Part shown: positions 24,114 through 56,162 of the stretch, one piece after another | How the letters are laid out: each line of letters starts with the position of its first letter | Numbering within the stretch: position 1 is the stretch's first letter | NCBI GenBank assembly: GCA_903912525.1 | Contig: CAIWHK010000007.1 | Coordinates: 22,563-86,562 of the forward strand | Length of the DNA stretch: 64,000 nucleotides | DNA from: an uncultured bacterium | Lineage (GTDB): Bacteria; Krumholzibacteriota; Krumholzibacteriia; LZORAL124-64-63 | Direction: 5' to 3' | Program-made: the position numbers and the translations under genes | The notes under the pieces: model-generated | Seen by the model: only the letters and a program-made list of their open reading frames with translations | What the model was told of the DNA's origin: nothing | The model's database searches: none

Positions 24114-24257
24114 GGGTTCCCCCCCAATTGGGTAAAAAGGCACATCACGTTCTTCCCTGACCGATCGAGTCCGGCTGCGTCCATGCATGCCGGATCGCCG
24201 GCCAGGCGCCTGGGGGGTGAGTCCCGGGGCGCCCGACCGGCGCCGTGATCATCCGAA

Positions 24258-28244: not shown

Positions 28245-28264
28245 GACTTGCGCCGGCGCAAGTC
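28245..28264. repeat. REP-like palindrome GACTTGCGCCGGCGCAAGTC (perfect; extended to 28 bp by GGGG/CCCC flanks)
   Basis: Between the cohesin-like and VOC genes. Confidence 0.85.
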
Positions 28265-29181: not shown

Positions 29182-29201
29182 GGACTTGCGCCGGCGCAAG
29201 T
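29182..29201. repeat. REP-like palindrome GACTTGCGCCGGCGCAAGTC (perfect)
   Basis: 30 bp after the VOC stop; first of a tandem pair. Confidence 0.85.
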
Positions 29202-29377: not shown

Positions 29378-30204
29378 TGAAGTCGGGCATCGGACGAATA
29401 GAAGCCCTATTGCTGGCCTACCTGCAGTTGCGGGGCATGAGGCTCGTCGAAGCCGGCGAGCTCGGGGAGCCCTTGCAACTGACGGCCGCCCAGGAGTGCG
29501 ACGCCCTGCGCCGGTTGGCGCGCGGCGGGCTGATCGCACGGGTGCGCCCTGGGCTGTACCTCGTTCCTGACCGGTTGCCGCTCGGCGGGGCCTGGACCCC
29601 GGACGAGGCGCTGGCGATCTCCTCGCTCATGGCCGATTGCGGCGGCACCTACCAGGTATGCGGCCCGAACGCCTTCCGTCGCCATGGCTTTTCTGACCAG
29701 GTGCCGATGCGGGTCTATGCCTACAACGACCGCATCTCCGGCGAGCGGACAATCGGCGCCGTCGCCTTGACGCTGATCAAGGTCAACGCGAAGCGTCTCG
29801 GCGATGTCGAAACGTTGCGCGGCGTTGACGGCGGCGAAATGGTCTATGCGTCGCGCGCGCGGACATTGGTCGACGCCGTATACGACTGGTCCCGCTTCAA
29901 CAGCCTGCCCCGCGCCTATGCGTGGATCCTCGACGATCTCGATGCCGGCCGCGTCGATCCGGCACGGCTGGTGCGTACAGCCCTCCGATTCGGGGACCTC
30001 GGCACACGCCGCCGCCTGGGCGTGCTGCTCGAGAGGGCCGGCGCACCGGAGAGCACGCTGGCGCGGCTCGAACGATCGCTGACGCCCTCATCGAGCCTGA
30101 TTCCGTGGATTCCCAGCCGCCCCAAGCGGGGCACAGTCAGCCGGCGCTGGGGGGTCCTGGTCAATGGACAGGTTGGCGAGTGGGGCGATACGGATCCTGG
30201 ATGA
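29378..30204 (+). CDS. AbiEi-family antitoxin / COG5340 transcriptional regulator (type IV TA)
   Basis: Probable TTG start after AAGGAG. N-terminal winged-helix-like region and C-terminal GAVALTLIKVNAKRLGDVETLRGVDGGEMVYASRARTLVDAVYDW typical of AbiEi. Its 3' end overlaps the AbiEii gene by 41 nt. Confidence 0.6.
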
Positions 30205-31081
30205 CCCGGCCCATTTCCGGAGCGCCGTTAACTATACGGCGGCAGTCACGGCGTTCCCTGTGGCACCCATCGAGAAGGACTTCTTCTGCACCCTTCTTCT
30301 GGAGCACCTGGCACGCAACGAACCTGACCTCGTCTTCAAGGGCGGAACCGCCCTGGCGAAAGTCCACGCTGGATTCTACCGATTGAGCGAGGACCTGGAC
30401 TTCACCCTTCCGATGCCGCTTGATTCCCCACGCTCGGCCCGCAGGCGGCGCATGGCCGGCATCCGTCGCGCGCTGGAAGGCATCGGCCGCGAATTGGCCG
30501 TCTTCCATTTGGCTGAGCCCCTGCGTGGCGCCAACAACTCGTCCCAATACTCGGCCACGGTCCGGTACCAGTCGCCATGCCTCGGATCGAGCGAAGACAT
30601 CAGACTCGACATATCCCTGAGGGAGCCACTGCTGACTCCCATCTATGCCGGGGCTGCGCAGACCATACTCCGCAACCCTGTCAATGGCAGCCGCATCATT
30701 CGCGATGTGCGCATCCCGTGCCTGTCGTGGCAGGAGTCGTGGGCCGAAAAGTTCCGCGCAGCGCTTTCGCGCCGGGATGTGGCCATTCGCGATTTCTACG
30801 ACATCGATGTTGCCGTCAGGCGGTGGAACCTGGACTCAGGCGCCGACGGGTTCGTCGCACTCGTACACCGGAAGCTATCGACTCCCGGATTCGAAAGACT
30901 GGAGCTTTCGTCGACGCGCCTGCGGTGCCTGAGAGCCCAGATCGACACGGAACTGCGACCCGTGCTCAGGCCCGTTGACTTCGAACCCTTCGACATGGAC
31001 AGGGCCGTCGACATCGTTGACGAGATGGCGAGGCGGATCCGCAAGATCGGACGCCAACGCCCAACCACCGGCACGGGATGA
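30164..31081 (+). CDS. AbiEii-family nucleotidyltransferase toxin (DUF1814), type IV TA
   Basis: EKDFFCTLLLEHLA...LVFKGGTALAKV...RLSEDLDF, the hallmark of AbiEii/DUF1814. The stop codon lies inside the REP copy at 31080-31099. Confidence 0.75.
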   Translation: MDRLASGAIRILDDPAHFRSAVNYTAAVTAFPVAPIEKDFFCTLLLEHLARNEPDLVFKGGTALAKVHAGFYRLSEDLDFTLPMPLDSPRSARRRRMAGIRRALEGIGRELAVFHLAEPLRGANNSSQYSATVRYQSPCLGSSEDIRLDISLREPLLTPIYAGAAQTILRNPVNGSRIIRDVRIPCLSWQESWAEKFRAALSRRDVAIRDFYDIDVAVRRWNLDSGADGFVALVHRKLSTPGFERLELSSTRLRCLRAQIDTELRPVLRPVDFEPFDMDRAVDIVDEMARRIRKIGRQRPTTGTG

Positions 31082-31099
31082 GTTGCGCCGGCGCAAGTC
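31080..31099. repeat. REP-like palindrome GAGTTGCGCCGGCGCAAGTC
   Basis: Overlaps the AbiEii stop codon; sits between convergent genes. Confidence 0.8.
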
Positions 31100-31113
31100 A
31101 GCCCAACGCCCCC

Positions 31114-31983
31114 CTACCCCACCGCCACCCCATACAGGCGCATCACCTCGTCAAAATCCGCCATCGACTTCGCCACATCCTCGAAGTCATCGACCATCCC
31201 CCAGTAGCAGGCGATCGACCCGCGGTCCTCGATCGCGATGCCGCCGTGGGCACGGATGTCGGCCAGGAGTTCGTCGCGCCCCTTGGCGAGGTAGCCGACG
31301 AGTTCCGAGTGGTCCAGCGCGGCCTCCTCCCTGACGAACCAGGCATCAACCGAGGATGGCGACAGAAGGTGGTTGATCCCGCCGGTGGCGTCGGGGCGCC
31401 TGAGGATCTCGTCCCCGATCAACTCTTCGAGGTCACCCTCGTCGATCGTGTCGTCGTCCTCGATCGGGCGATCGCCACGCCACGAGAGGCCGGCCCAGGC
31501 GGCGTCGAGGGCGGCGAGGAACTCGGGGTCCTCGCTGCGATCGTATTCCTCATCGGGATCCGGCTTGCCGGCCTGGCGGCGGTCGTACAGGTAGTCGTCC
31601 CAGAACGGTTCCTCGTACTCGTCCTTGTCCCTGTACTCGGCCCGGTCGTCCATGGCATCCGCCAGGCTGGCGGCGACGCCCGGCGCGATGGCGCGATATT
31701 CGGCGAGCGTGCCCGTGAAGCCGAACGAGGCCGCTTCCGCGGCGGTCTCGATGACATCGCCCAGCGTCGCGAACGCCAACCGGCCGGGGTTGCACGGATC
31801 GACGCTCCACAGCACGACGCTGCTGTCCTTCTCGACAGGGCCGGTCAGGCACTCCTGCTGCGCCTGGAGGTGCTCGAGCAGGGCGGCGGCCAGGTGCTTC
31901 ACCGGTTCGTGGATTTCGGTCCGGGTAGCGAAATCGGCGAGCGTCTGCCGGGCGGCGGCGCGGGACTCATCTCTTGACGGCAT
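31114..31983 (-). CDS. Acidic hypothetical protein, paralog 1 of a three-member family (DPCNxG N-motif, G-x-IxD...WG...EDV C-motif)
   Basis: GAGGAGG RBS; pI clearly acidic; motifs LWSVDPCNPGRLAFATLGD and GGIAIEDRGSIACYWGMVDDFEDV shared with 32026-32802 and 33625-34719. Confidence 0.5.
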   Translation of the reverse strand: MPSRDESRAAARQTLADFATRTEIHEPVKHLAAALLEHLQAQQECLTGPVEKDSSVVLWSVDPCNPGRLAFATLGDVIETAAEAASFGFTGTLAEYRAIAPGVAASLADAMDDRAEYRDKDEYEEPFWDDYLYDRRQAGKPDPDEEYDRSEDPEFLAALDAAWAGLSWRGDRPIEDDDTIDEGDLEELIGDEILRRPDATGGINHLLSPSSVDAWFVREEAALDHSELVGYLAKGRDELLADIRAHGGIAIEDRGSIACYWGMVDDFEDVAKSMADFDEVMRLYGVAVG

Positions 31984-32025
31984 CACGGCCTCCTCATGCG
32001 AGTGATCCGCGCGTGCGCGGCGAAC

Positions 32026-32802
32026 CTAGTCATCTTCTTCATCGCCGATCGAGGCCATGGCGGCTTCCTGCAGGGCGCGCTCGGCGTCCTCGTGCGCGGC
32101 CAGGCGCCGATGGACTTCATTCACGTCCACCGTGAACCCCCAGAAGCACTCGAGCAGGACATCGTCGCGGATCATGGTGCAGCCGAACCGCGTGAAGCAT
32201 GCAACGATGGCGTCGTGGTCCTTGGACCTGAATGCGAGATTAGGCTCCATGTCGCAAGAGGTGTCCTGCCATTCGCCATAGGCGTTGGCGACGATGGGCG
32301 GGACGCCCTCCTCCATCGCCCTCATGGGGCAGTAGAGGTGGAGGTATCCCTCTTCTTCGTATTCGTATAGGTCTCCCAGGCAGATCTCGTCCTCGTCCAG
32401 CGGGCCGCGGCCGAGCGGAAACGGGATATCGGCGTACTCGGCGCGCAACTCGGCCTCGGTCAGCGTCGCGCGCAGTTCGTCGACGTCGAGGTCGTCACAG
32501 TAGGCGGCATCGTGCGCAGCATCGTTCAGTTCGCCATTTGCGAACGCATCGAAATCCGGGTAGCACGCTATGAAGGACAGTTCCTCGCGCAGGTCGTCGG
32601 CCTCGCACCCGCCCAGTTCGGTGAAACGCCCCCAGGTCCCTGCGGATTCGGCCGCGGCGAAGAAAGGGGCCCACAACGACATCTCGTCGAACGGGACGAA
32701 CACCAGGCCGCCATTGCACGGGTCCGCGCCGTAGATGAAGACCTCGGCCATGGGATCCGGACGACGGGCGGGGCCGTTGCCCGAAAAGTGGCGCACGCTC
32801 AT
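32026..32802 (-). CDS. Acidic hypothetical protein, paralog 2
   Basis: Start MSVRHF overlaps the stop of the upstream gene (ATGA). IYGADPCNGGLVFVPFDE and GCTMIRDDVLLECFWGFTVDVNEV motifs. Confidence 0.5.
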   Translation of the reverse strand: MSVRHFSGNGPARRPDPMAEVFIYGADPCNGGLVFVPFDEMSLWAPFFAAAESAGTWGRFTELGGCEADDLREELSFIACYPDFDAFANGELNDAAHDAAYCDDLDVDELRATLTEAELRAEYADIPFPLGRGPLDEDEICLGDLYEYEEEGYLHLYCPMRAMEEGVPPIVANAYGEWQDTSCDMEPNLAFRSKDHDAIVACFTRFGCTMIRDDVLLECFWGFTVDVNEVHRRLAAHEDAERALQEAAMASIGDEEDD

Positions 32803-33623
32803 CGGCGACTCCCCTCGACAACGGCAGTCCGCACATCCTCGCACGCGAACCGCAGGAAGTCGTGCACATGGGCCAGCAGCGGATGATCCGGACCGCCCAC
32901 CGGCACCAGCGTCCGGTTGACCTCGACCATCAGCGAGCGCGTGTCGTTGACGTGCGGCGGCAGGTCGCCGGGCACGAAGGAACCCGCGAACGGCCGGTTG
33001 TGGTCGATGAGGCCCGGCGCGCCCGCGGCGCGACCCGTCCACCACGCCAGCCAGTTGCGCGGCGCGTGGACCTCGTCGTAGCCGAGGCAATACCATGGCC
33101 GCGAGCCGCCGTCCGTCTCGTAGGGCAGCGGCGCCTGGGGAAACGAGTGCAGGTCGATGATGTGGACCGGCGCGTCGAAGCGCTCGCGCAGTTCGACGAC
33201 CAGGTCGCGCATGGCGCGGTGGTACGGGTGGTAGAACTCGTCCATGCGCTCGGCGCGGTCGTCGGCGTCCCAGTTGCGCCGGCGCAAGCGGCGGCCGTCG
33301 TGCGCGTGCACATAGATGGCGCCCATGCCCCAGACGGCGGCGATCTCGTCGGCGTCGGCGGCGTATCGCTCGGGGTCCATCACGACACGGCAGACGTTGT
33401 TGACCACGACGTGGGCGCCGAGCGCCACCAGGGGCAGCGCCAGGCGGTCGGTGTCGTGGTCGACGAGGGCCTCGATCACTTCGCGGAGCTCTGCGTCGGT
33501 CAGCACGAAGTCGCCACGGCAGTGCAGGGGCACGAAGCGCGAGGCGTGGGGCACGTGGATGATGATCGGCAGCGCCACTGCCGGGTCGGGACGATGGATG
33601 GTAAGCCAGGCGTTGTCGCCCAT
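32799..33623 (-). CDS. N-formylglutamate amidohydrolase (FGase, PF05013-like) fold protein with in-frame REP-derived insertion
   Basis: IIIHVPHAS motif typical of the FGase family. A REP copy at 33271-33290 encodes the RRLRRRNW insert. Confidence 0.6.
   Translation of the reverse strand: MGDNAWLTIHRPDPAVALPIIIHVPHASRFVPLHCRGDFVLTDAELREVIEALVDHDTDRLALPLVALGAHVVVNNVCRVVMDPERYAADADEIAAVWGMGAIYVHAHDGRRLRRRNWDADDRAERMDEFYHPYHRAMRDLVVELRERFDAPVHIIDLHSFPQAPLPYETDGGSRPWYCLGYDEVHAPRNWLAWWTGRAAGAPGLIDHNRPFAGSFVPGDLPPHVNDTRSLMVEVNRTLVPVGGPDHPLLAHVHDFLRFACEDVRTAVVEGSRR
33271..33290. repeat. REP-like palindrome variant CAGTTGCGCCGGCGCAAGCG, in-frame inside the FGase-fold gene
   Basis: Encodes RRLRRRNW on the minus strand. 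Confidence 0.65.
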
Positions 33624-33624
33624 C

Positions 33625-34719
33625 TCAGAATCCCCCTTCGTCGTCATCGTCCTCTTCCTCTTCCCACTCCTCGTCTTCCTCGAGGTCAGGGTCCTTCAAG
33701 TCGTCGAGCACGCTGGCGCAGCCCGGTGACGGGTCGGCCGGGGTGATCAGTTCCAGCTCGGCCCTGAACTCGGCCTCGCGCGCCCGGTATGCCTTGCACT
33801 TGGCGATCACGTCCTCGTAGCTCTTGAAGGTGCCGAAGAACGCGCGGATCGCGTCGTCGTCACGGATGGTCAGGTAGCCCAGGCGACGGAACGCCGCCTG
33901 GAGCAGCGAGCTGCTGACTTCGTCGTACGAGGCGAACGGGCCGTTGCAGCTCATGTCATAGAACGAACCGGCGTACTTGTCCTCGATGAGCGAGGGCATC
34001 GACGAACTCATGGCCGTCTCGGGGCGGTACAGCCAAATCTTCCCGTCCCAGATGGCCTGCGACATGTCCAGCTCGTTGATCTCGTCGGTCGGCTGCGGCG
34101 GGCGGTCGCCGAAGCAGCTGAGCGCCTCCCACCGCGCGCGCAGGACCTCTTCCGTGGGCCGGACGGCCGGCGGCGTCCACTCGCACTTGTCATCGTCGTC
34201 CCACTCGTCATCGCACGGGCGCTCGGCCGGATCGCCCTTCTTCAGGAACTCGCTGCGGAACGAGCGAAAGGTCTTCCACCGCGCCGCCTCGCGAAGCGTG
34301 GCCTTGAGCGCCACCGCCCGCTTGCGGTCCAGCTTGGCGTAGCCCGCCCACGTCTTGCCCGCGGCGATGGCGGCCCACGCCGGCAGGTAGGCCAGCAGGT
34401 CGTCCAACGGGACGTAGAGCTGGGAGTCGCCGTGGTCGTAGCCCCAGACGTAGACCATCTCGAGCGGACTGACGACCGTCGGCACACCGCGCAGCGGCTG
34501 CTCCTGTCCGCTGGCCTTCTCGACGAGCTGCCGTACTTCGCGCCAGGGCTTGCAGCCGAGGTTCCCGAAGTAGGCGGCGCGCGCGTGGGCACGGCGTTCC
34601 TCGGGCGTGAGCTGCTCGAAATCGATTTCGGGCGCTACTGCCTTCTTGGCCGACGGGGTCGTCTTGCCAGTGGTCGTCTTGCCAGTGGCCTTCTTGCGAG
34701 CGGTCGTCTTGGTAGCCAT
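33625..34719 (-). CDS. Hypothetical protein with Lys/Thr/Ala-rich basic N-terminal tail and acidic C-terminus; paralog 3 of the acidic family
   Basis: AAGGGAGA RBS; N-terminus MATKTTARKKATGKTTTGKTT; C-terminus SCNGPFASYDE...GYLTIRDDDAIRAFFGTFKSYEDV...EEDEEWEEEEDDDDEGGF. Confidence 0.5.
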   Translation of the reverse strand: MATKTTARKKATGKTTTGKTTPSAKKAVAPEIDFEQLTPEERRAHARAAYFGNLGCKPWREVRQLVEKASGQEQPLRGVPTVVSPLEMVYVWGYDHGDSQLYVPLDDLLAYLPAWAAIAAGKTWAGYAKLDRKRAVALKATLREAARWKTFRSFRSEFLKKGDPAERPCDDEWDDDDKCEWTPPAVRPTEEVLRARWEALSCFGDRPPQPTDEINELDMSQAIWDGKIWLYRPETAMSSSMPSLIEDKYAGSFYDMSCNGPFASYDEVSSSLLQAAFRRLGYLTIRDDDAIRAFFGTFKSYEDVIAKCKAYRAREAEFRAELELITPADPSPGCASVLDDLKDPDLEEDEEWEEEEDDDDEGGF

Positions 34720-34834
34720 GATCTTGTCTCCCTTGCGTTTGCGGCCGGAGCCGATGGTTGATCCAACCCGGCGCCGTCACGGCGCTATTCATACCAGAGG
34801 GCCGTTCCGTCCCGCGGAACGGCTCCGCACTTCC

Positions 34835-36271
34835 CTACCCTCCCTCAGCGAGCCGCGGCAGCGGCACGACCTCCTTCCCGAGGACGCCGGCCAGGTCGCG
34901 GTCGTAGCTCCCCGCCAGCAGCACCACGCATTGCAGGCGCCGTTCGCGCAGTTCGCGCCGATGCTCTTCCGGCACGCTCCCGACGTACCCGTCGGTGATG
35001 ACCACGGCGCGCCGGACACCCTCGGCCAACATGTGCGCCGAGACGCAACGGATGTCCGTGCCCCCGTCGCCGACGACCTTGCGGGCGACCAGCTCGGCGG
35101 GTGAGATGTCGTGCAGCGTGGTGCTGAACAGGTGGATGCGCGGGTAAAGCAACGCGCGCAGCGGCGCCAGGGCGCCGTAGAGCAGGGCAATGACGCCCGC
35201 CATGCTGCCGCTGACGTCCAGGTACACGTGCACGAGGCTGCCGGGGTCGGGCTCGCGTTCGCGCCGCACGGCGCGGAACACGATCGGCGCCGCGCCGAAG
35301 GCCTCGCGCACGCCGGCGCGGCGGTCGGCCACGGTGCGGAACGGCAGCGCGGACTCGACGTCCACGTCACGCGCGCCCCGAGACGGCGCAGAACCCGGCT
35401 GGTCGCCCGCAACCCGCAGCAGTGCCCCGCGGATCACGCGGACGACGTCGCGCCGCGCCTCGCGCGCCTCGACGAACGCCGCGCCGGGATCACCGCCCTG
35501 GCCCCGGTCGACGCCGACGCCGCGCGCGGCCAACGTGACCTCGGCCGGCCAGTGGGCGACGACGCGGCGCAGGGTTTCGAGCAGGGCGGGATCGACCCCG
35601 CCGCCCTCATCGTCGCCCGGCGGACCGACGTCGTGGCTGCCCAGCAGCGGCGGCAATTCAAGCGACGCCTTCGCGCGACCCCGACGGCGGCGGCACCCGA
35701 GCGACTCCTCGAGCACCTCGACGAGGTCCGCATGCGTGACGGTGTCGCCCGCATACAGCGCGCGATGGGCGACGAGCGCCTTGCCCGTCATCCGCCACGA
35801 CTCGTTCGCGGTGCGCCAGCCGACGGGCGGGCGCAGCAGCGCCTCGGGGAAGCGGGCGTCCGCGTACAGTTCGCGAAACAGCGCCGTGTACGCCGGTCGG
35901 GGTAATGCGCGGCACAGCTGGGCGTTGACCAGGGCGTCGAAGATGAAGTTCCGCGCCGGCGTCGTGCGCGGGTACAGGCGCGTGTGGCCGAGCACGATGT
36001 GGTTGAGCTCGTGCAGCACGAGCATCACCAGGGCCGCGTCGGTGCGGCAATGCCGCGCCACGAAGTCCGGATTCAACAACAGGCGTGAGCGGGCGCCCGA
36101 GGTCACGGCCGCCGTCGCCACGTCGCGGTTGACCTCCACGTCCAGCAGGCCCAGCAGCTTCGCAAACTCGAGGTGCGAGGCAGGGACCGTTTCGGCGATG
36201 CGCTCGGCAAGGGTGGCCGAGAGGGCGCGATCGACGGCACGGTCGGCAGCATGGTCAATGGCGGTCGTCAT
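34835..36271 (-). CDS. Putative HExxH metallopeptidase plus vWA-like domain protein (DUF2201-type MoxR partner)
   Basis: Start MTTAIDHA overlaps the upstream stop (ATGA). LVLHELNHIVLGH zinc-peptidase motif; VHVYLDVSGSMAG vWA-like MIDAS. Confidence 0.6.
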   Translation of the reverse strand: MTTAIDHAADRAVDRALSATLAERIAETVPASHLEFAKLLGLLDVEVNRDVATAAVTSGARSRLLLNPDFVARHCRTDAALVMLVLHELNHIVLGHTRLYPRTTPARNFIFDALVNAQLCRALPRPAYTALFRELYADARFPEALLRPPVGWRTANESWRMTGKALVAHRALYAGDTVTHADLVEVLEESLGCRRRRGRAKASLELPPLLGSHDVGPPGDDEGGGVDPALLETLRRVVAHWPAEVTLAARGVGVDRGQGGDPGAAFVEAREARRDVVRVIRGALLRVAGDQPGSAPSRGARDVDVESALPFRTVADRRAGVREAFGAAPIVFRAVRREREPDPGSLVHVYLDVSGSMAGVIALLYGALAPLRALLYPRIHLFSTTLHDISPAELVARKVVGDGGTDIRCVSAHMLAEGVRRAVVITDGYVGSVPEEHRRELRERRLQCVVLLAGSYDRDLAGVLGKEVVPLPRLAEGG

Positions 36272-36813
36272 GCCGGCACCTCCCCCGCGCCGGGCGCCGC
36301 GTAGAACGCGAAGGCCATCCGGGGAGTCCGCATCACGGCCGTGCCCGGCGCGCGCCGCCGGATGAACACGGAGCCGGACACGCGCGACAGCAGGGCCAGC
36401 GCACGCGCCGGGTCCGCCTCGAAGCCCTGTTCGTGGACGCCGTCCACCGGGATGCGGCGCACGATGGCGAATGGCGGCAATCCCAGCGCCACGGGATCCA
36501 GGCGCCCGAGCATTTCCTCCAGCCGGTCGGACAACTCGTCGTCGGGGCACGGGTACAGCTCGATGTCGGCATCACGACGGCCGAGCACCGCGTCCTGGGC
36601 CAGCGCCACCAGCCGCACCAGGCGCAGGTGCGCATCGCGCTCCCACTCGCGTTCGAACGGGCGCCCGAGCAGGAGCGGGTACGGGTCGACAAACGAGAAC
36701 AGCCGCAGCGACGGAACGGGCGCCGCCACACCGCTCCGCAGCGCCACAGCGCCGACAGTGCGCGCCGGGTCGAACGGGCGGCACCTGACCTTGATGGAGC
36801 GCGAGGTGCTCAT
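36268..36813 (-). CDS. Hypothetical protein (181 aa) between the MoxR ATPase and the metallopeptidase-vWA gene
   Basis: ATGA overlaps on both sides indicate translational coupling; no recognisable domain. Confidence 0.45.
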   Translation of the reverse strand: MSTSRSIKVRCRPFDPARTVGAVALRSGVAAPVPSLRLFSFVDPYPLLLGRPFEREWERDAHLRLVRLVALAQDAVLGRRDADIELYPCPDDELSDRLEEMLGRLDPVALGLPPFAIVRRIPVDGVHEQGFEADPARALALLSRVSGSVFIRRRAPGTAVMRTPRMAFAFYAAPGAGEVPA

Positions 36814-38276
36814 GCCGCCTCCCCGTCCGCTGCCGGATGCAGCAACTCGTGCCACTCGCGGTAGCAGGCGACCACCCGTGCCGCGTCCAGGCCCGTCGCA
36901 TCGTCCAGGAACGCCGCGTAGAGCAGGTTGCCGATCTCGCCGAGTTGCGGCTCGCCCTCCTTCGACAGGCGGTCGATGGTGGCGCACACGTTATCCCATG
37001 CATTGGCGTGCGCGCGCGGCACTGTGCGGGTGACCTTGCCACCGCCCGCAAATGCGAGCACCGGCTCGACCAGCACCGCCAATTGCTCGCAGGCCTCGGC
37101 GGTCAGCAGATCCTCGCGCGTGAACCGCGAGGCCAGCACCAGCGCCAGCACACGGCGTCCGTTCGGCGTCTGCGAGGCCAGGGCATCGAGCACGAGCTGG
37201 CTGACCTGCGTGCGCGTCGACTCGCCGGGCTCCGCGCGCAACGCGATGGCGACGCGGCGCACCGGGTCGGCCTCGCCGCGGATGTCGCGCCAGGTGGCGC
37301 CGTCGATTGCGCGCGCCGCGTGGTCGGCCAGGCGGTGGGCCGCCTTCAACGCGGCGTCATCGATCACGCGGCCGAGCGCGCGCTGAGGCAGACCCCAGCG
37401 CAGCGCGGTGTACGCCGACTGCGGCAGCGAACTGCGCACCCCGAGCGCCAGGTGGGCCGCGTGCACGGCCAGCGCCGACGAGGCCAGCGCGACCGCGCGG
37501 CGCCCGCTGATGTCGAGCCCCATCTGGTGCAGCGGCACGATGAGCCCCTGCACCCAGGCCGCGGCCCAGGCGCGCTGGCCCTCGGTCAGCTCCGCCAGGC
37601 GCGCGCGGGCTGTGGCGACCAGCGCGGGCAGGCCGGCATCGCCGTCAGGCGCGGTGCCGCCCTGCGCGATGATCGCCGTGCGATCGGCCACCGACAGGTC
37701 CAGCAGGCGCGGGACGGTCACCACGTACGGGAACCGATCGGCGAGCGCCGGGTCGAGCGGCACCGAGCCGGAATAGGCATCGCCCTCGACCGTGCCGTCG
37801 TCGAGCGCCGGCGGGTTCATCGCGGCCCACCGATACCTCAGGTTTACCAGCGGCAACCCCTGCACGCGCCGCTCGTGAATCACCGCGAACAGCTTGTTCT
37901 GCGTCTCGGGGCGGCAGCGCGAGATCTCGTCGAGGAACACCGACTCGGCGCCCCACAGGTCGCCCGGCGTGCGCAGCCACGAGAGAGCGTCGCGCGCCTC
38001 ATTGGGCACGGGGTAGCCGAGCAGGTCGTCAAAGCTGATGAGGCTGGCGTTGAAGTGGCGGTGCTCGAGGCGCAGCGCCGCGGCAAGCCGGTTGAGCAGC
38101 TCGCTCTTGGCGGTGCCGTGCGCGCCGATCAGGAGCAGCGGGCGCTCGTCGGTGAGCGCCGCCAGGATGACGGCATCGAGGTGGTCGAGTCCGAAGATGT
38201 TCAGGCGTCGCAGCAGGTGGTTGTTGCCGGACGTATCGGATGGGGCTGCAATATCGGCGTGGCTTGCGTTGGGCAT
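36810..38276 (-). CDS. MoxR-like AAA+ ATPase
   Basis: Walker A LLLIGAHGTAKSEL; Walker B VFLDEISRC; sensor/arginine-finger region typical of the MoxR/RavA family; GGGAGGTG RBS. Confidence 0.7.
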   Translation of the reverse strand: MPNASHADIAAPSDTSGNNHLLRRLNIFGLDHLDAVILAALTDERPLLLIGAHGTAKSELLNRLAAALRLEHRHFNASLISFDDLLGYPVPNEARDALSWLRTPGDLWGAESVFLDEISRCRPETQNKLFAVIHERRVQGLPLVNLRYRWAAMNPPALDDGTVEGDAYSGSVPLDPALADRFPYVVTVPRLLDLSVADRTAIIAQGGTAPDGDAGLPALVATARARLAELTEGQRAWAAAWVQGLIVPLHQMGLDISGRRAVALASSALAVHAAHLALGVRSSLPQSAYTALRWGLPQRALGRVIDDAALKAAHRLADHAARAIDGATWRDIRGEADPVRRVAIALRAEPGESTRTQVSQLVLDALASQTPNGRRVLALVLASRFTREDLLTAEACEQLAVLVEPVLAFAGGGKVTRTVPRAHANAWDNVCATIDRLSKEGEPQLGEIGNLLYAAFLDDATGLDAARVVACYREWHELLHPAADGEAA

Positions 38277-38437
38277 GCCGCACCTCCCGTTTCCCCCAAT
38301 GGCCGCCCGTGCGGCCAGGCTCCGGGGGCAGGGAGCGCGGCCGACGCTTTAGCAGCATTTGTTTAGGCCGCCCTGCAAGCTGTCAGGGTCAAATCGGCGG
38401 CCCCCGGCAAATGCCGGGAAGAGAAAAGTGCCGGGCA

Positions 38438-38472
38438 AAGAAAAAGCCTGCTTCCAATGGCTGAAGCAGGCA
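38438..38472 (-). terminator. Rho-independent terminator (minus strand) upstream of the MoxR operon
   Basis: Perfect 9-bp stem GCCTGCTTC-N9-GAAGCAGGC followed on the minus strand by TTTTTCTT. Confidence 0.45.
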
Positions 38473-38614
38473 GCGCGCGATCATGTCGCGTTCGGCCTCG
38501 CTTTAGCCTGATTTGTATCGCGCCGGCAAGCTGAGGTCAAAGAGGCGCGTTTGAATATTATCGGCGCGATGGGGTGTTTGGTCAAGAGGTATTTCGCAAG
38601 TTTGTTGCGTGGGT

Positions 38615-38634
38615 GAGTTGCGCCGGCGCAAGTC
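38615..38634. repeat. REP-like palindrome GAGTTGCGCCGGCGCAAGTC
   Basis: Intergenic, next to the 38646 remnant ORF. Confidence 0.8.
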
Positions 38635-38645
38635 CGGCACGCAAT

Positions 38646-39017
38646 TCACGCGTTCATTCCTCGCCAAGGCCTGCCCGGCAATTTCGTCGCGATGCGTTGA
38701 TGTACTTCTCGCCAGGCGGCATTCCCGTCGTACGCGAGCCCGGGCCGCAGCAGCAGTTTCACGTCACCGACGAAAGCCGCGTCCCTCATCTTTGCGGCCA
38801 GGTTCGCCTCCATGCGGGCGCGGGTCACGGGCACGCCGAGCCAGGGCGCGAGATATCCCCAGGTCCTGTTCGACCAGCGCCGACTCGGGCCAGGGCGTAG
38901 CGGCACGATGGTGGTGCGGCGGGCGACCAGCCACGCGGCCAGCGAACCTGCCAGACGTTCCTCGCCCAGCTGTTCGAGCACGTAGCCGAGACGCTGGGCA
39001 TCGGGCCGGCGCACCAT
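38646..39017 (-). pseudogene. Probable remnant or short ORF of unknown function (C-terminal about 120 aa of a larger protein)
   Basis: Protein-like codon usage only in the segment 38646-39017; the long ORF in the track runs through REP 39303-39322 and an AT-rich intergenic stretch, so the 5' part is not credible. Confidence 0.3.
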
Positions 39018-39302
39018 TGGTTGCTGGTGGCCGGCGCCATGGAGCGCGGCGGCCGACACCAGGCGCCCCTTCTGCTTCTGGCGGCGCAATGCCGATTGCG
39101 TTGCGACGAACGACGACCGGAGGGCAGCCTCGGCCTCTTGGCGCCTACAACATGTAGCGGCCCTTGGCGGGAAGGGATTCGATCCAGTCTTCGAGGTGGT
39201 GAAGGGCGTCCATGTTCGGCAAGCCTCAGCATGTAAGTCAGCATCAAATGCTAATATATTGTCGTATATTTGATCGATTCTTGGGATTGGGGGTGTCGCG
39301 CG

Positions 39303-39322
39303 GACTTGCGCCGGCGCAAGTC
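39303..39322. repeat. REP-like palindrome GACTTGCGCCGGCGCAAGTC (perfect)
   Basis: Upstream of the SWIM-SNF2 helicase gene. Confidence 0.85.
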
Positions 39323-39462
39323 GCAGCCGATCCGGCCGGACCCGCAACGGCATTTGCGCCCGCCCCCGCAAGGGTATAGGCTTTGCTGCCGACCTGCCCA
39401 TGGCAGAGCCTCCCGGCTGCACCCATCGACCGCTGGCCCAGGACTCCGGAAAAGAGCCGCAG

Positions 39463-42400
39463 ATGACCGTGTTTTCGCTCCGCCATTTCGACGAGGACAC
39501 CGTCTTCGAGCGGGCCGCGCTCGAAACTGTCAGGCGCGGTCACACCTACCACAGAGCCGGACGGGTCGTTAATGTCTCCGTCAAACGGGACGACCTTGCG
39601 GTGCTCGGGGTGGACGGCAAGACCGGCCACTACGTGGTGACCATCTCCGTAAACCAGTCGACCGACACGCTCGACCACACCTGCACATGCCCGCACGCGG
39701 GCGGCGGCGCGTTCTGCAAGCACATGGTGGCCGCCACGCTCGAACTCGAGGAATACGTCCAGGCGATGGCCGATGAATTCGGCGAGGACGATTTGGATGA
39801 TGATGACGACGTCATTGCATTCAACGTCGAGACGTTCGATTCCGGCCGACCTGTCACTGGTACTCCGCCCCGAAAGGACGCCCGCCTGAAGCTGATCGAC
39901 GGCTCCGCGCGCACCGACCAACCGGCCCGCACCGCCCCGGACTGGCGGCAGAAACTGACCAGCGCCCTGACCGACATGTCGCACCTGGTGCCCGGCGCGA
40001 AACCGCGCCCCTACGTCGCCGCCATCGTCCTGGATCGTGGGCGTACCGACATCCACAGGTACGGCAGCTGGAACTACGGCTCCGAACCGTACGCGCTGGT
40101 GCCGTACGTCATCAGCGCCACCTCGTGGAAGCGAATCCCGGGCGACAAGCCGACTTCCCCCCGAGACATCAATGCGTATCTGGAAACCGAGCCGGGGTGG
40201 CTCCAATTCGCCGACCGCATGTACCAGCAAGGCAACCCGGCGGGATGCCTCAACCTTGACCCCCATACGGCCGGCGTCCTGAACCTGATCGTGAGTGCGT
40301 TGCCGTTGTATGTCAGCCGCACGGCCAATCTTTCCAGCCTACTGTCGCTGCTGGCGCGTTCGGACATTCCCGTGTTCCTGGGCGACATCCGTTCGCATCA
40401 GGTCGCGTGCCGCCTCCGGATCGAGAGCGATCCCGTGGTGTTGGCCGCCGACGTGCGAACCGCGGAGAGCGCGTTCACAGTACACCTGGGCACTACGCGG
40501 GATGGTGTCTTTCGCGAGCTTCCCGCGGCGATCGAGACGATCGCGGAAAATCCGACGTGGATCCTGGACGGCAAGGACATCCTGAGGGTCGAAAACGAGC
40601 GGGCCTTGTCGATCGCCCGCGCGTTTCCGCTCACCGTTCCGGCGGCGGAGATCGACGAGTTCCGCGGGAACCACTTTGGGGCCATCGCCCAGATGGTGCC
40701 GATCCACGGCGATGTCGTCCACTGGCGGGACTTGCAGGTGGCGCCGGTGCCGCGGCTGTATCTGCAGGACGACGGAGCCCGCTCGCTGCGCGCCGAGCTG
40801 CGCTTCGCCTATGGCGAGTTTTCGACGGCGGACATCAAGGCCACCTTCACCGTCGGCATTGCGAACATGCCCGACTCGTGGGACCTGGTGCGCGTCCACC
40901 GGCAGCCCGAATCCGAAGAGCGGATCCTGAAGCTGCTGGCCGAGCCCGCCCACGGCCTCAAGCGCGTGGACGCCGCCGCGCGGCCGGGCACGTACCAGCT
41001 GCGGGCCCGCACGCATCCGCTGGATTTCCTCCTGAACGCCGTGCCCCGGCTTGCGCAGGCCGGATTCGAGATCTACGGCGCCGAGGACCTGAAGGTCGGC
41101 CGCGTCAACCGCGCGACGGCGAACGTGCGCGTGAGCATCACCTCGGGCCTCGACTGGTTCGACCTCGAGACCGTCGTCGAGTTCGGCGACCAGCAGGTCT
41201 CGCTGCAGGACGTGCGCAAGGCCCTCAAGCGGGGCGAGCACTACGTGAAGCTGGCCGACGGCTCGGTAGGCCGGATCCCCGAGGAATGGCTGGCGAAATA
41301 CAGGCACCTGCTCGACCTGGCCGAGGAGTCCGGACCAGGTCTGCGGTTGCGCGACTTCCACCTGCCCCTGCTCGACCAGCTGCTGCAGGAGGACGCCGCG
41401 CTTCGCTTGCCTGCCGACCTGACCCGTCGGCGCGAACGGCTGCGCGATTTCGAGGGGATCAGGCCGCAGCCGCTGTCGGCCGCGTTCACCGGCGAGCTGC
41501 GCCCGTACCAGAAGCACGGCTACGACTGGCTGCATTTCCTGGGCGAGTGCGGCTTCGGCGGCATCCTGGCCGACGACATGGGCCTGGGCAAGACCGTCCA
41601 GGTCCTGGCCTACCTCCAGGCGCGCCACGAACAGCCCGTGGTCACGGCCGCGACGCTGCTGGTCGTCCCCCGCAGCCTGATCACGAACTGGCAGCTCGAA
41701 TCGCGGAAGTTCACGCCCGGCCTGCGCTTCCTGGACCATACCGGAAGCGCGCGCGCGAAGGATGTCGCCGCCTTCGACGGCTGCGACATCGTGCTGACGA
41801 CCTACGGCACGATGCTGCGCGACATCGAGGTGCTGCGCGGGTACACGTTCAGCCACATCGTGCTGGACGAATCGCAGGCCATCAAGAATCCCCTGGCCAA
41901 GGGCGCCAAGGCCACGCGGCTGCTTCACGGCGACCAGCGCCTGGTGATGACGGGCACGCCGGTCGAGAACAGCACGTTCGAACTGTGGTCCCAGTTCGCG
42001 TTCCTGAACCCCGGGATGCTCGGCGGCATGGAGTACTTCCGGCGCGAGTTCGCCAACCCCATCGAGGCCAACCGCGACGAGCAGGCTGCCGCCACGTTGC
42101 GCCGGCTGGTGCGCCCCTTCATCATGCGCCGCACCAAGGAACAGGTCGCGCCCGAATTGCCCCCGCGCACCGAGCGCATCGTCTATACGGAGATGGGTAC
42201 CGCGCAGAAGAAGCTCTACGCGCTGACGCGTGAACGCTACCGCGCCGAACTGATGGGATTGATCGACGGCGGCGCCATGAACGATGCCCGGTTCCGGATC
42301 CTCGAGGGCCTGCTGCGCCTGCGGCAGATCGCGATCCACCCGGCGCTGATGGACCGCACATACAAGGGCGAAGCGCCCAAGTTCGAAGCGCTGCTGGAGA

Positions 42401-42909: not shown

Positions 42910-42929
42910 GACTTGCGCCGGCGCAAGTC
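42910..42929. repeat. REP-like palindrome GACTTGCGCCGGCGCAAGTC (perfect)
   Basis: Between the convergent helicase stop (42879) and MqsA-like stop (42942). Confidence 0.85.
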
Positions 42930-48429: not shown

Positions 48430-48545
48430 GGGTACGTCCCGTGGTCGATGGTGGCGGTGCCGGGTGTGTGAGGGCCGGTGGGGATGACAATAGTGCATTA
48501 TAACGCGTTTGGGGGTGATGGATCTACAGAAATGAGGGGGTGCGC

Positions 48546-48565
48546 CAGTTGCGCCGGCGCAAGTC
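48546..48565. repeat. REP-like palindrome CAGTTGCGCCGGCGCAAGTC
   Basis: Between the M6 protease start region and the YhcG1 stop. Confidence 0.8.
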
Positions 48566-48591
48566 CCCCGCACCGTAGTCGCAATTTATAA

Positions 48592-50277: not shown

Positions 50278-50351
50278 TTTCTTGGCGGCGATATCCGATC
50301 TGCATATACTCATTGAAGGCCGTACCTGCCTGGACTTCATCGGGGACTACC

Positions 50352-52182: not shown

Positions 52183-52194
52183 GGCGCCGACCCA

Positions 52195-52236
52195 AAAGAA
52201 AAACCCCGGCGTGTGGCTGAGCCAGACCCCGGGGGG
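52195..52236 (-). terminator. Terminator-like hairpin plus T-run (minus strand) immediately upstream of the NYN gene; same element as 55215-55260
   Basis: CCCCGG-cgtgtggctgagccagac-CCGGGG stem followed on the minus strand by TTTTTCTTTT. Confidence 0.35.
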
Positions 52237-52675
52237 ATAAAACACCCGGTCCCGTGGGATCCGAGCGACCCGCAGTATACACAGGGCTGGGCTGCCGTGT
52301 CAACTGCAGTGGCGAAGCGCTAAAGAAGAGCCCTCCGGGGCGCCACCAGAAGGGGGTCAACCGGCTCAGCAAGCCGGGCTGGGGTTGATACGCATTCAGT
52401 TGCGATCTGATCGCGGGGCGGGTCAAGGGCGATTCCCTCTTTGGCGCTGGAGTGGGCCGGCGCGGTCGAGAATGCAAGGACCCCGCCCGGCGGCGTCCTT
52501 GTCGCTGCGCCAGTGCACAAGTAGTCGCGCAACTGCCGCGTCGTTTGCGCGTCATGACGGCCAAGTTCCGAAAGCCCCCGGGCGAGGTGCCATGCACCTT
52601 GCGAGCCCACCGCAAATACATGTCATGCTCCGTTGACAGCTTCATGGGAGATGGCGCCCGCCGTCTTCACTTGCC

Positions 52676-56152: not shown

Positions 56153-56162
56153 GTTAGTGCCT

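What the first reader, a model, noticed from the sequence alone, without database searches (positions are those of the whole stretch)
31114..38276. Seven-gene translationally coupled operon: MoxR AAA+ ATPase, small protein, HExxH-peptidase/vWA, three paralogous acidic proteins, FGase-fold enzyme; candidate undescribed MoxR-vWA-based system
All seven genes are on the minus strand. Four junctions overlap ATGA-style (36810/36813, 36268/36271, 32799/32802) or leave 1 bp (33623/33625); the other two gaps are 40 and 115 bp. MoxR ATPases normally act with a vWA partner. Here the partner also carries a zinc-peptidase HExxH motif (VLHELNHIVLGH), and the module is extended by a repeated family of strongly acidic proteins (shared DPCN(G/P)G N-motif and G-x-IxDD...(F/Y)(W/F)G...EDV C-motif; one with a histone-H1-like K/T/A-rich tail). 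An FGase-fold amidohydrolase is wedged between them. The operon is flanked by an AbiE TA pair and REP copies, the kind of neighbourhood where conflict or defence systems accumulate. The acidic paralogs could be substrates, cofactors or DNA-mimic-like effectors of the ATPase-peptidase machine. I do not recognise this exact seven-gene arrangement as a described system, although MoxR-vWA ternary conflict systems with peptidase effectors have been predicted by comparative genomics.
Basis: partly seen in the sequence, partly recalled or inferred. Interest (0 to 1): 0.72.

Follow-up and report, generated by a model that had tools for sequence, protein, structure and literature searches.

The report
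SAM-riboswitch-controlled MoxR/vWA and acidic-protein operon
The seven genes are real and sit behind two tandem SAM-sensing riboswitches, but they are a lineage-specific join of two separate cassettes: a widespread MoxR ATPase/zinc-peptidase-vWA module that normally comes with its own SAM synthetase copy, and a very rare amidohydrolase-plus-acidic-protein module of unknown function.

Summary
Observation confirmed: there are seven intact minus-strand genes with the stated overlaps, domains and three acidic paralogues.

Two tandem SAM-II-type riboswitch aptamers lie upstream of the MoxR gene (38469-38560 and 38314-38412). The first is followed by a terminator-like hairpin and the second by a hairpin that sequesters the Shine-Dalgarno sequence.

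Comparative genomics splits the cluster into two modules.

1. MoxR, a small protein and a zincin(HExxHx4H)+vWA protein form the core of a four-gene operon. A relative of this MoxR was found in 483 stretches of the GTDB species-representative genomes. Its usual fourth gene, a divergent MetK-like SAM synthetase, is missing here. In other lineages the same operon carries SAM-I, SAM-I/IV or SAM-II riboswitches above Rfam thresholds.

2. The acidic protein-FGase-acidic protein ("A-F-A") cassette has no Pfam family and no fold match. In related genomes it stands alone, directly behind the same riboswitch leader (85-94% identical).

In this window A-F-A-A occupies the MetK-like slot and has no riboswitch of its own.

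Best reading: a SAM-shortage-induced operon built by cassette exchange in a variable island. A defence role, for example sensing SAM depletion caused by phage, is possible but unproven. None of the seven proteins matches a PADLOC defence-protein model with significance. I found no paper linking SAM riboswitches to MoxR.

The parts
38557..38585 (-). sigma-70-like promoter (TTGACC-17-GATAAT)
   Evidence: It is the only promoter-like site in 30900-38700 and lies just upstream of aptamer 1.
38469..38560 (-). SAM-II-type riboswitch aptamer 1
   Evidence: Rfam RF00521: 26.4 bits, E 6e-4, below the gathering score of 36. Own covariance model R1: 53.5 bits. Its pseudoknot CCUC(A)GCUU:AAGC-GAGG is compensatory relative to aptamer 2.
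38446..38471 (-). intrinsic-terminator-like hairpin with a U-run, following aptamer 1
   Evidence: 9-bp stem, TTTTTCTTTG tail. Conserved in L093.
38314..38412 (-). SAM-II-type riboswitch aptamer 2
   Evidence: Rfam RF00521: 26.9 bits, E 4.5e-4 at 38329-38410. R1: 87.8 bits. Covariation of P1 and the pseudoknot is shown.
38279..38341 (-). predicted hairpin pairing CUCCC with the GGGAG Shine-Dalgarno of g1; its 5' arm abuts the 3' tail of aptamer 2
   Evidence: -47.2 kcal/mol, z -2.3. The role as expression platform is inferred.
36810..38276 (-). g1: MoxR-type AAA+ ATPase, 488 aa. Walker A is GAHGTAKS, Walker B is VFLDEIS, and a family-specific C-terminal ~300 aa follows.
   Evidence: Internal Met is 0.4%.
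36268..36813 (-). g2: small basic protein, 181 aa, no known domain. It is the middle gene in all 73 related loci examined.
   Evidence: The single-sequence AF2 model is unusable (pLDDT 34).
34835..36271 (-). g3: N-terminal zincin-like domain (HExxHx4H) plus a C-terminal vWA domain with an intact MIDAS motif, 478 aa
   Evidence: phrog_1314
34720..34834 (-). 115-bp spacer between the two modules, with two short hairpins. It has no aptamer and no terminator-like site, and is conserved in L097.
33625..34719 (-). g4: acidic protein of the 'pre-FGase' subfamily (A1), 364 aa. It has a K/T/A-rich N-terminal tail and an acidic C-terminal tail ending in GGF.
32799..33623 (-). g5: FGase-fold amidohydrolase, 274 aa. 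It is not a HutG equivalog.
32026..32802 (-). g6: acidic protein of the 'post-FGase' subfamily (A2), 258 aa, pI 4.06
31114..31986 (-). g7: third, lineage-specific acidic paralogue (A3), 289-290 aa
31081..31098 (.). REP-type palindrome between the g7 stop and the AbiEii stop
29437..31081 (+). AbiE-like toxin-antitoxin pair, convergent with g7 (AbiEii 30164-31081; putative antitoxin 29437-30204)
38667..39213 (-). degraded remnants of an AbiEi/AbiEii pair that is intact at this position in the syntenic relative L093

Best explanation
The cluster is a seven-gene operon kept off by S-adenosylmethionine (SAM). It was assembled from two cassettes in a chromosomal variable island.

Regulation. Two tandem SAM-II-type aptamers precede g1. 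The first is followed by an intrinsic-terminator-like hairpin. The second is followed by a hairpin that sequesters the ribosome-binding site. When SAM is plentiful, transcription and translation are blocked. When SAM falls, all seven genes are made. g4-g7 have no aptamer of their own, so they can be SAM-regulated only by read-through from g3.

Module 1 (g1-g3). A MoxR AAA+ ring works with a partner protein. That partner's vWA/MIDAS domain captures a client, and its N-terminal zincin domain can cleave it. The small g2 protein is an obligatory third subunit or adaptor. In most relatives the operon ends with a divergent MetK-like SAM synthetase. The module is therefore most likely a chaperone/activase or quality-control device for SAM synthetase, by analogy with CbbQ/CbbO and Rubisco. 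In this window it would have to act on a MetK encoded elsewhere.

Module 2 (g4-g7). This is a conserved Zn amidohydrolase of the FGase fold, translationally coupled to fast-evolving, non-enzymatic acidic partner proteins (A1 upstream, A2 downstream, plus an extra A3 here). I expect these to form a complex with the enzyme or to be its protein substrates. In related genomes this cassette stands alone directly behind the same riboswitch leader. In this lineage it has replaced the MetK-like gene.

Shown versus inferred. Shown: gene structure, motif integrity, the riboswitch architecture with covariation, the distribution, and the cassette exchange. Inferred: SAM as the ligand, co-transcription, and every biochemical role.
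For: Riboswitch:
- Rfam RF00521 gives two hits on the operon strand.
- My own model found 62 aptamers in 1.3 Mb of related loci. All are on the operon strand, and in the loci I checked by position they lie upstream of MoxR, metK, HD_4 or A/FGase genes. Only two are in the window.
- 91% of P1 and pseudoknot cells pair, against 32-44% when partners are slid. The covariation score is 0.305 against 0.104 in shuffles (0 of 500 reach it). Compensatory AU/GC/CG and AU/UA pairs are present.
- Homologous MoxR operons carry other SAM riboswitch classes above Rfam gathering scores, upstream of MoxR (directly in most): RF00162 in L063 and L051; RF01725 in L014, L019, L024, L026, L038, L048, L061 and L076; RF00521 in L045.
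- A terminator-like site and an SD hairpin are predicted.

Module 1:
- The triad is conserved in 75 loci across phyla.
- A MetK-like gene lies immediately downstream in about 42 loci and keeps the MetK motifs.
- HExxHx4H and MIDAS are invariant. The Walker motifs are invariant.
- dN/dS is 0.02-0.18.
- MoxR and g3 are Met-poor: 0.4% and 0.8% against a window median of 2.0%.

Module 2:
- A-F-A cassettes without MoxR occur in L090-92, L085 and L004, and A copies occur in L001.
- Tandem aptamers abut their first gene.
- The FGases are 61-67% identical, while the A partners give only weak BLAST scores to their positional counterparts (about 27-43% identity where measured).
- Positional A1 and A2 subfamilies exist.

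Exchange:
- L093 flanking genes are 88-97% identical to the window's, and the leader is 96% identical. MoxR, small protein and vWA protein are only 68%, 40% and 50% identical, and MetK-like sits where A-F-A-A does here.
- The g3-g4 junction and spacer are conserved in L097.
Against: - The window aptamers score below the Rfam gathering threshold (26-27 bits against 36). Ligand binding is untested.
- Co-transcription of g4-g7 with g1-g3 is not shown. The 115-bp spacer is well conserved and could hold a promoter that my sigma-70 scan misses.
- The triad plus A-F-A combination is seen only in this lineage.
- The 'MetK activase' role rests on analogy alone, and this window lacks the MetK-like gene.
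- Nothing links the FGase or the acidic proteins biochemically to SAM or methionine.
- The A proteins are not Met-poor.
- The Chloroflexi-type triads checked have neither a SAM riboswitch at Rfam gathering score nor a MetK-like gene.
Confidence: 0.6

Rival explanations
1. SAM-depletion-triggered immunity. The tandem riboswitch acts as a sensor for phage attack on the SAM pool, for example by SAM lyases or MetK inhibitors. It releases swappable cassettes. One type is a MoxR/zincin-vWA machine plus a backup SAM synthetase. The other, as here, is the FGase/acidic-protein module acting as effector or decoy.
For: - The locus lies in a variable island rich in defence and TA genes: AbiE x3 plus remnants, YhcG x3, NYN, HTH-M78 and SNF2/SWIM.
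- Cassettes are exchanged behind a conserved leader while their proteins diverge far faster than the flanks.
- The A proteins evolve fast (dN/dS 0.44 for g4).
- Phage families exist for the MoxR, vWA and MetK-like proteins.
- The P-loop variant GXXXTAKS is shared with MoxR conflict systems (PMC7159879).
Against: - No protein gives a significant match to a PADLOC model.
- There is no hit in phage or plasmid records or in IMG/VR.
- No recognised toxic effector domain is present.
- SAM riboswitch control is equally expected for plain SAM homeostasis.
- Island context is circumstantial.
Confidence: 0.2
2. Two unrelated neighbours. g1-g3 is a truncated remnant of the MoxR-MetK-like operon. g4-g7 is an independent cassette with its own promoter in the 115-bp spacer, inserted together with an AbiE pair. 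There is no shared regulation or function.
For: - Each module occurs without the other in every other lineage examined.
- Coupling is tight within the modules, but a 115-bp gap separates them.
- The spacer is more conserved than the g4 coding sequence.
- The island accumulates cassettes.
Against: - Elsewhere A-F-A cassettes carry the riboswitch leader immediately upstream. Here that leader is missing before g4 and present only before g1.
- A-F-A-A sits exactly in the MetK-like slot on the same strand.
- No terminator-like site follows g3.
- g1-g3 are under purifying selection, so they are not decaying.
Confidence: 0.25
3. One reading: a MoxR-vWA-peptidase ternary conflict system in which the acidic paralogues are substrates, cofactors or DNA-mimic effectors of the ATPase-peptidase machine.
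For: - MIDAS sites bind acidic side chains, and A proteins often end in D/E tails (16 of 40 family members).
- The genes share strand and order.
- The MoxR matches the bpMoxR Pfam family.
Against: - The acidic family exists without MoxR/vWA in at least four contexts, and the triad exists without it in more than 70.
- The third component g2 resembles none of VMAP, iSTAND, FtsH or beta-propeller (no Pfam hit).
- The zincin is invariant, not a variable effector.
Confidence: 0.1

Closest known systems
SAM-II riboswitch (Rfam RF00521, SAM_alpha)
   Same: - H-type pseudoknot with a 6-bp P1 and P2a/P2b helices formed between the loop and the 3' tail.
- The conserved GAUUUGA, GCUUGC, CAAAU and GCUAAAG blocks are kept.
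- It lies in the 5' leader of SAM-related genes (here metK paralogues in relatives).
- One relative (L045) passes the Rfam threshold.
   Different: - The window copies score 26-27 bits, below the gathering score of 36.
- They are arranged in tandem, one with a terminator and one with a distal SD-sequestering hairpin. In the classic case the SD lies inside the pseudoknot.
- They control a MoxR/vWA operon and an FGase/acidic-protein cassette, neither of which is a known SAM-regulon member.
- They are found well outside the Alphaproteobacteria.
MoxR-vWA ternary conflict systems (Kaur, Burroughs, Iyer and Aravind 2020, PMC7159879), especially the beta-propeller and FtsH classes
   Same: - A MoxR AAA+ protein is coupled to a vWA protein and a third gene.
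- The bpMoxR Pfam model matches.
- The GXXXTAKS P-loop variant is shared.
- A peptidase domain sits on the vWA protein.
- The genomic setting is often defence-like.
   Different: - The third component is a ~200-aa protein unrelated to VMAP, iSTAND, FtsH or beta-propeller.
- The zincin is N-terminal and invariant, not a variable C-terminal effector.
- The usual fourth gene is a MetK paralogue.
- The operon is controlled by a SAM riboswitch.
- It is not in PADLOC.
MoxR/vWA enzyme activases (CbbQ/CbbO for Rubisco, NorQ/NorD, CoxD/CoxE) (from my own knowledge)
   Same: A dedicated AAA+ and vWA(MIDAS) pair is encoded beside the enzyme it is thought to serve. VWA_CoxE is the best Pfam match for the vWA domain of g3.
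   Different: The partner enzyme would be a SAM synthetase, which is unprecedented. A zincin domain and an obligatory small protein are added. No biochemical evidence exists.
DUF2201 (metallopeptidase + VWA-like) proteins paired with MoxR-like ATPases, including phage versions (phrog_1314 and phrog_1297)
   Same: Same two-domain order, with an HExxH domain followed by vWA, next to an AAA_5 ATPase.
   Different: DUF2201_N matches only below threshold (20.5 against 23.2). The family here has its own HExxHx4H-T signature and SAM-linked context.
N-formylglutamate amidohydrolase HutG (PF05013 / TIGR02017; PDB 2Q7S)
   Same: g5 has the FGase fold and the PH(A/S), DPxR and LHS(F/M)P motifs.
   Different: It scores 37 bits against the 279-bit cut-off for the HutG equivalog. 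No hut genes are nearby. It is always flanked by acidic A proteins and preceded by a SAM riboswitch.

Membership tests
MoxR-type AAA+ ATPase (Pfam AAA_5 / bpMoxR) | Pfam models above the curated cut-off; Walker A and Walker B present | tested here: met
   AAA_5 scores 40.1 against 22 and bpMoxR 29.9 against 27. G54, T55, K57, S58 and D116, E117 are invariant in 23 homologues.
MoxR-vWA ternary conflict systems (Kaur et al. 2020) | The third conserved component is VMAP, iSTAND, an FtsH-type AAA+ or a beta-propeller protein | tested here: not met
   g2 has no Pfam, NCBIfam, PHROG or PADLOC match. It is a ~150-300-aa protein in all 73 loci.
MoxR-vWA ternary conflict systems (Kaur et al. 2020) | Variable effector domains fused to the vWA protein | tested here: not met
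   All 63 homologues share the same architecture, with an N-terminal zincin followed by vWA, and an invariant HExxHx4H.
MoxR-vWA ternary conflict systems (Kaur et al. 2020) | GXXXTAKS P-loop variant (FtsH and beta-propeller classes) | tested here: met
   GAHGTAKS in g1; described in PMC7159879.
Known anti-phage defence systems (PADLOC-DB 2.0) | Any component matches a defence-system HMM | tested here: not met
   g2, g3, g4, g5 and g7 have no hit. g1 and g6 have only weak partial hits (best E 9e-4).
vWA domain with MIDAS | DxSxS...T...D metal site | tested here: met
   D352, S354 and S356 are invariant. T384/T405 and D427 are conserved in at least 90% of the 63 sequences. VWA_CoxE scores 27.6 against 26.4.
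DUF2201_N putative metallopeptidase | Pfam model above cut-off; HExxH | tested here: inconclusive
   20.5 bits against a cut-off of 23.2. HExxH is present and invariant.
SAM-II riboswitch (RF00521) | Score at or above the Rfam gathering threshold (36 bits) | tested here: not met
   The window aptamers score 26.9 and 26.4 bits. The homologous aptamer in L045 scores 37.9.
SAM-II riboswitch (RF00521) | P1 helix plus H-type pseudoknot, supported by covariation | tested here: met
   91% of cells paired against 32-44% when slid; 7 pairs with changes on both sides; covariation 0.305 against 0.104 (0 of 500 shuffles).
SAM-II riboswitch (RF00521) | Binds SAM and represses downstream genes | not testable with these tools
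   Indirect support only. Orthologous operons carry SAM-I or SAM-I/IV riboswitches at the same place. metK paralogues lie downstream.
FGase family (PF05013) | Pfam model above cut-off | tested here: met
   129.8 bits against 28.9.
HutG N-formylglutamate deformylase (TIGR02017 equivalog) | Equivalog cut-off of 278.75 bits | tested here: not met
   37.3 bits.
AbiE type IV toxin-antitoxin | AbiEii toxin plus an adjacent AbiEi antitoxin | tested here: inconclusive
   AbiEii scores 93.2 bits (met). The upstream partner matches only DUF6088, at 21.4 bits against a cut-off of 25.
DNA-mimic anti-restriction proteins (ArdA/Ocr-like) for g4, g6 and g7 | Sequence or fold similarity to known mimics | tested here: not met

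The most novel reading that the evidence does not exclude
The tandem SAM riboswitch is an infection sensor. Phage SAM lyases or MetK inhibitors drop the SAM pool, which unlocks a family of exchangeable cassettes parked behind a conserved leader in defence islands. One cassette type rebuilds SAM supply, using a MoxR/zincin-vWA machine plus a resistant MetK paralogue. The other (A-FGase-A, as in this window) is a new effector or decoy module with a previously unseen protein fold. That would be riboswitch-gated immunity with integron-like cassette swapping.
Probability: 0.15. Interest if true: 0.9.

Novelty: new variant of a known kind. Interest (0 to 1): 0.68.

Why it matters
SAM riboswitches are among the best-studied riboswitches, and their regulons are thought to be methionine/SAM biosynthesis and transport. 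This work points to three things.

- Three different SAM riboswitch classes have converged on one operon of unknown function. It encodes a MoxR AAA+ ATPase, a small protein, a zincin-vWA protein and a MetK paralogue. A relative of its MoxR was found in 483 stretches of the species-representative genomes, across several phyla. This suggests that SAM synthetase may have a dedicated AAA+ remodelling or proteolytic partner, as Rubisco and NO reductase do.

- The same leader controls a very rare cassette made of an FGase-fold amidohydrolase and acidic proteins. The acidic proteins have no detectable sequence or fold relatives. The riboswitch gives a concrete condition, SAM shortage, under which to study them.

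- Cassettes are exchanged behind a nearly identical riboswitch leader in a defence-rich island. This raises the testable idea that SAM depletion serves as a danger signal.

Tried and rejected
- Structure of g2. The single-sequence model has pLDDT 34 and is unusable.
- Profile of the acidic family against the g2 family: unrelated.
- Second word-indexed search with the family profile: only 8 proteins returned.
- Family scans of metagenome and viral contigs: 2 and 0 loci. The broader alignment was too divergent to scan with.
- tblastn of g3, g4 and g6 against plasmids and phages: nothing.
- MetK-like remnants in the window: none.
- Acidic C-terminal tails on the MetK-like proteins, as a possible shared MIDAS ligand: absent.
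- The REP-like palindrome inside g5 (33272-33289) encodes the conserved GRRLRR motif of this FGase clade, so I take it to be coincidental.
- Rfam at gathering thresholds on the whole window found nothing. The riboswitches appeared only in E-value mode after a conserved leader was noticed.
- RNA fold of the g3-g4 spacer is no better than shuffled sequence (z -0.06).
- Literature searches for MoxR with MetK, SAM synthetase or SAM riboswitch, and for FGase in conflict contexts, returned nothing relevant.

Full report
**1. The observation**

Seven ORFs lie on the minus strand:
- g1: 36810-38276
- g2: 36268-36813
- g3: 34835-36271
- g4: 33625-34719
- g5: 32799-33623
- g6: 32026-32802
- g7: 31114-31986

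g1/g2, g2/g3 and g5/g6 overlap as ATGA. g4/g5 leave 1 bp. The g3/g4 gap is 115 bp and the g6/g7 gap about 40 bp.

Pfam gives the following:
- g1: AAA_5 and bpMoxR.
- g3: VWA_CoxE, plus a sub-threshold DUF2201_N.
- g5: FGase at 2e-37.
- g2, g4, g6, g7: nothing.

The three acidic proteins are paralogues with pI 4.1-4.7. The basic K/T/A-rich tail of g4 is N-terminal. AbiEii is confirmed next door. A REP-type palindrome occurs at 22 sites in the window, against 0.1 expected. All seven genes are under purifying selection when compared with near relatives. dN/dS ranges from 0.02 to 0.44, with g4 and g7 the fastest.

**2. Two modules, not one system**

A profile of the MoxR family found 483 stretches encoding a relative in one-genome-per-species GTDB contigs. 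I examined the best 80 loci.

- MoxR is followed by a small ORF and then a g3 homologue in essentially every locus that has room. None of these loci contains g4, g5, g6 or g7.
- In about 42 loci, including all close relatives with enough sequence, the gene immediately after the g3 homologue on the same strand is a divergent S-adenosylmethionine synthetase. It keeps the GHPDK, GGPxGDxGLxGxKxxVDxYG and GGGAxSGKD motifs. It scores only 148 bits against the metK equivalog cut-off of 309.
- The window has no MetK-like gene or remnant.
- In 63 g3 homologues the motif HExxHx4H-T and the MIDAS DxSGS are invariant. The MoxR Walker motifs are invariant. The P-loop is the GXXXTAKS variant that Kaur et al. 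noted for some MoxR conflict systems (PMC7159879).

The acidic family is very rare.
- It forms four 90%-identity clusters among 5.8 billion proteins.
- In a profile search of 1.84 billion representatives, 35 score at E of 1e-10 or better and 124 at 1e-3 or better.
- It has no Pfam family.
- A confident AF2 model (pLDDT 81) has no significant fold match.

Its members occur as free-standing cassettes:
- A-FGase-A in L090-92.
- A-FGase-(A) next to HigBA in L085.
- FGase-A next to AbiE in L004.

None of these has a MoxR nearby. The copies upstream and downstream of the FGase form distinct subfamilies, A1 and A2. The FGases are 61-67% identical, while the A partners give only weak BLAST scores to their counterparts (about 27-43% identity where measured).

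**3. The riboswitch**

I aligned the region upstream of g1 with relatives. It is about 96% identical to L093, although the MoxR proteins are only 68% identical. A 122-nt seed from this leader also matched, ending directly at the start codon, upstream of several other genes:
- the free-standing A/FGase cassettes in L090, L004 and L001;
- a canonical-type metK in L096.

Rfam in E-value mode identifies two SAM-II (RF00521) aptamers on the operon strand, at 38480-38558 and 38329-38410. They score 26.4 and 26.9 bits (E about 5e-4), below the gathering score of 36.

I built a covariance model from 28 leaders. It finds 62 aptamers in 1.3 Mb of related loci. All are on the strand of the operon, and many are in tandem. 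In the loci I checked by position they lie upstream of MoxR, metK, HD_4 or A/FGase genes. Only the two upstream of g1 are found in the window. A filter-free search finds none in the g3-g4 spacer.

The SAM-II architecture is supported by covariation:
- 91% of P1 and pseudoknot cells pair, against 32-44% when partners are slid.
- P1 positions alternate AU/GC/CG.
- Pseudoknot helix P2a alternates GC/CG/AU and AU/UA.
- The covariation score is 0.305 against 0.104 in shuffles (0 of 500 reach it).

The two window aptamers are compensatory with respect to each other: GAC:GUC in one and CCUC:GAGG in the other.

The most decisive result concerns homologous MoxR operons that lack the SAM-II type. They carry other SAM riboswitch classes above Rfam thresholds, directly upstream of MoxR in most:
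- SAM-I (RF00162) in L063 and L051.
- SAM-I/IV (RF01725) in L014, L019, L024, L026, L038, L048, L061 and L076. L049 has one about 1.8 kb upstream.
- RF00521 itself at 37.9 bits in L045.

The Chloroflexi-type loci that I checked lack MetK-like and show none.

In the window the elements run in this order:
- A promoter-like site at 38557-38585 precedes aptamer 1.
- A terminator-like hairpin at 38446-38471 follows aptamer 1.
- After aptamer 2 comes a stable hairpin that pairs CUCCC with the g1 Shine-Dalgarno.

MoxR and g3 are unusually poor in methionine, at 0.4% and 0.8% against a window median of 2.0%. This fits expression during methionine or SAM shortage, but it is weak evidence.

**4. How the seven genes came together**

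L093 is from a close relative. Its flanking genes (NYN, FG-GAP protein, glyoxalase, DUF2779) are 88-97% identical to the window's. Its order is AbiEi-AbiEii, leader, MoxR, 202-aa protein, 457-aa protein, MetK-like, glyoxalase.

The window differs as follows:
- It keeps the leader.
- It keeps remnants of that AbiE pair at 38667-39213.
- Its triad is only 68%, 40% and 50% identical to that of L093.
- A-F-A-A plus a second AbiE pair sit between g3 and the glyoxalase gene.

L090 and L004 also come from relatives (DLH 82% and AbiEi 90% identical to window genes). They carry A-F-A or F-A directly behind leaders that are 94% and 85% identical to the window's.

So cassettes are exchanged behind a conserved riboswitch leader in a variable island. 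That island also holds three YhcG nucleases, NYN, an HTH-M78 protein, an SNF2/SWIM helicase and several AbiE genes.

The g3-g4 junction is conserved within the lineage. L097 has g3 at 90% identity, an 88%-like spacer and g4 at 74%. It also has an extra ankyrin-like gene before the FGase.

**5. Interpretation**

The best-supported reading is a SAM-repressed operon made of two cassettes.
- The control by SAM riboswitches, the integrity of all catalytic motifs and the modular history are shown.
- Co-transcription of g4-g7 is inferred. The inference rests on the missing leader before g4, the shared strand, the absence of a terminator-like site and the conserved junction.
- The biochemical roles are also inferred. 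The MoxR/vWA-zincin module may act as a remodelling or cleavage device for SAM synthetase. The FGase may work in complex with, or on, the acidic partners.

Rivals:
- A defence system that senses SAM depletion caused by phage. This is attractive given the neighbourhoods, but no effector or defence-system homology supports it.
- Two unrelated neighbours.
Their independent distributions contradict this.

**6. Novelty**

MoxR-vWA pairs, SAM riboswitches and FGase enzymes are all known kinds. I did not find the following described anywhere in the held literature:
- the SAM-riboswitch-controlled MoxR, small protein, zincin-vWA, MetK-like operon;
- the A-FGase-A cassette;
- the shared leader.

None is in Pfam, NCBIfam or PADLOC as a named system. 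The particular seven-gene arrangement is a lineage-specific mosaic.

Noticed in passing
window, 22 sites (e.g. 28246-28263, 29184-29201, 31081-31098, 38616-38633, 39304-39321, 42911-42928): An 18-bp REP-type palindrome, ACTTGCGCCGGCGCAAGT, occurs at 22 sites against 0.1 expected. Most of those I located fall between genes. One match inside g5 (33272-33289) encodes the conserved GRRLRR motif and is probably coincidental.
   Followed up: partly
window 38667-39213 (-): Frame-broken remnants of an AbiEi/AbiEii pair. The pair is intact at the same position, upstream of the riboswitch leader, in the syntenic relative L093.
   Followed up: yes
window ~29400-56200: A large variable island. It holds three YhcG/DUF1016 nucleases (43893-44909, 48592-49581, 52709-53872) and an NYN gene (51547-52245). 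It also has an HTH-Peptidase_M78 gene (50313-51434) and an SNF2/SWIM helicase (39400-42879). Further AbiEi genes lie at 54534-55127 and 55358-56176.
   Followed up: partly
L016:261-463, L018:2962-3164, L067:7499-7709: Tandem SAM-II-type aptamers also precede HD_4-domain (ppGpp-hydrolase-like) genes that lie just upstream of the MoxR operon in several Burkholderiales-type MAGs. This would be another unexpected member of the regulon.
   Followed up: partly
L096:6436-6645 and 7872-7965; L100:3425-4570: A canonical-type metK gene often sits a few kb upstream of the MoxR operon. In L096 it has its own tandem aptamers, so two MetK-type genes are under SAM riboswitches at one locus. L019 and L022 have two MetK-like genes in tandem after the vWA gene.
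   Followed up: partly
L008:1347-1613 and L005 (same MAG, LJ_bin-5039): The MAG closest to the window carries a second MoxR paralogue (76% identical) behind a leader 98% identical to the window's. One genome can therefore hold several cassettes behind copies of the same leader.
   Followed up: no
L100:13812-19491: One MoxR-MetK-like operon lies next to a ~4-kb gene-free stretch followed by Cas2/Cas1 (probably a CRISPR array), and near a WYL regulator.
   Followed up: no
window 38441-38567 (+): A sub-threshold Rfam hit to Burkholderia sRNA Bp2_287 (28.9 bits against a gathering score of 70) on the strand opposite aptamer 1. It is probably a mirror of the riboswitch and terminator.
   Followed up: no
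window 19737-27176 and 45013-48573: Very large secreted or surface proteins (1483, 972 and 1186 aa) end in FlgD_ig / Por_Secre_tail-like domains. The same kind of protein is seen in L090 and L093. This suggests a T9SS-type sorting signal and points to an uncultured non-proteobacterial host. The closest named MoxR relative is from Krumholzibacteriia, at 62%.
   Followed up: no
window 58001-64000: GC drops from about 0.66 to 0.56-0.58, which may mark foreign DNA.
   Followed up: no
L097:1684-2334: In a relative, an extra 216-aa gene with weak ankyrin-repeat similarity is inserted between the A1 gene and the FGase. The cassette content therefore varies even within the lineage.
   Followed up: partly
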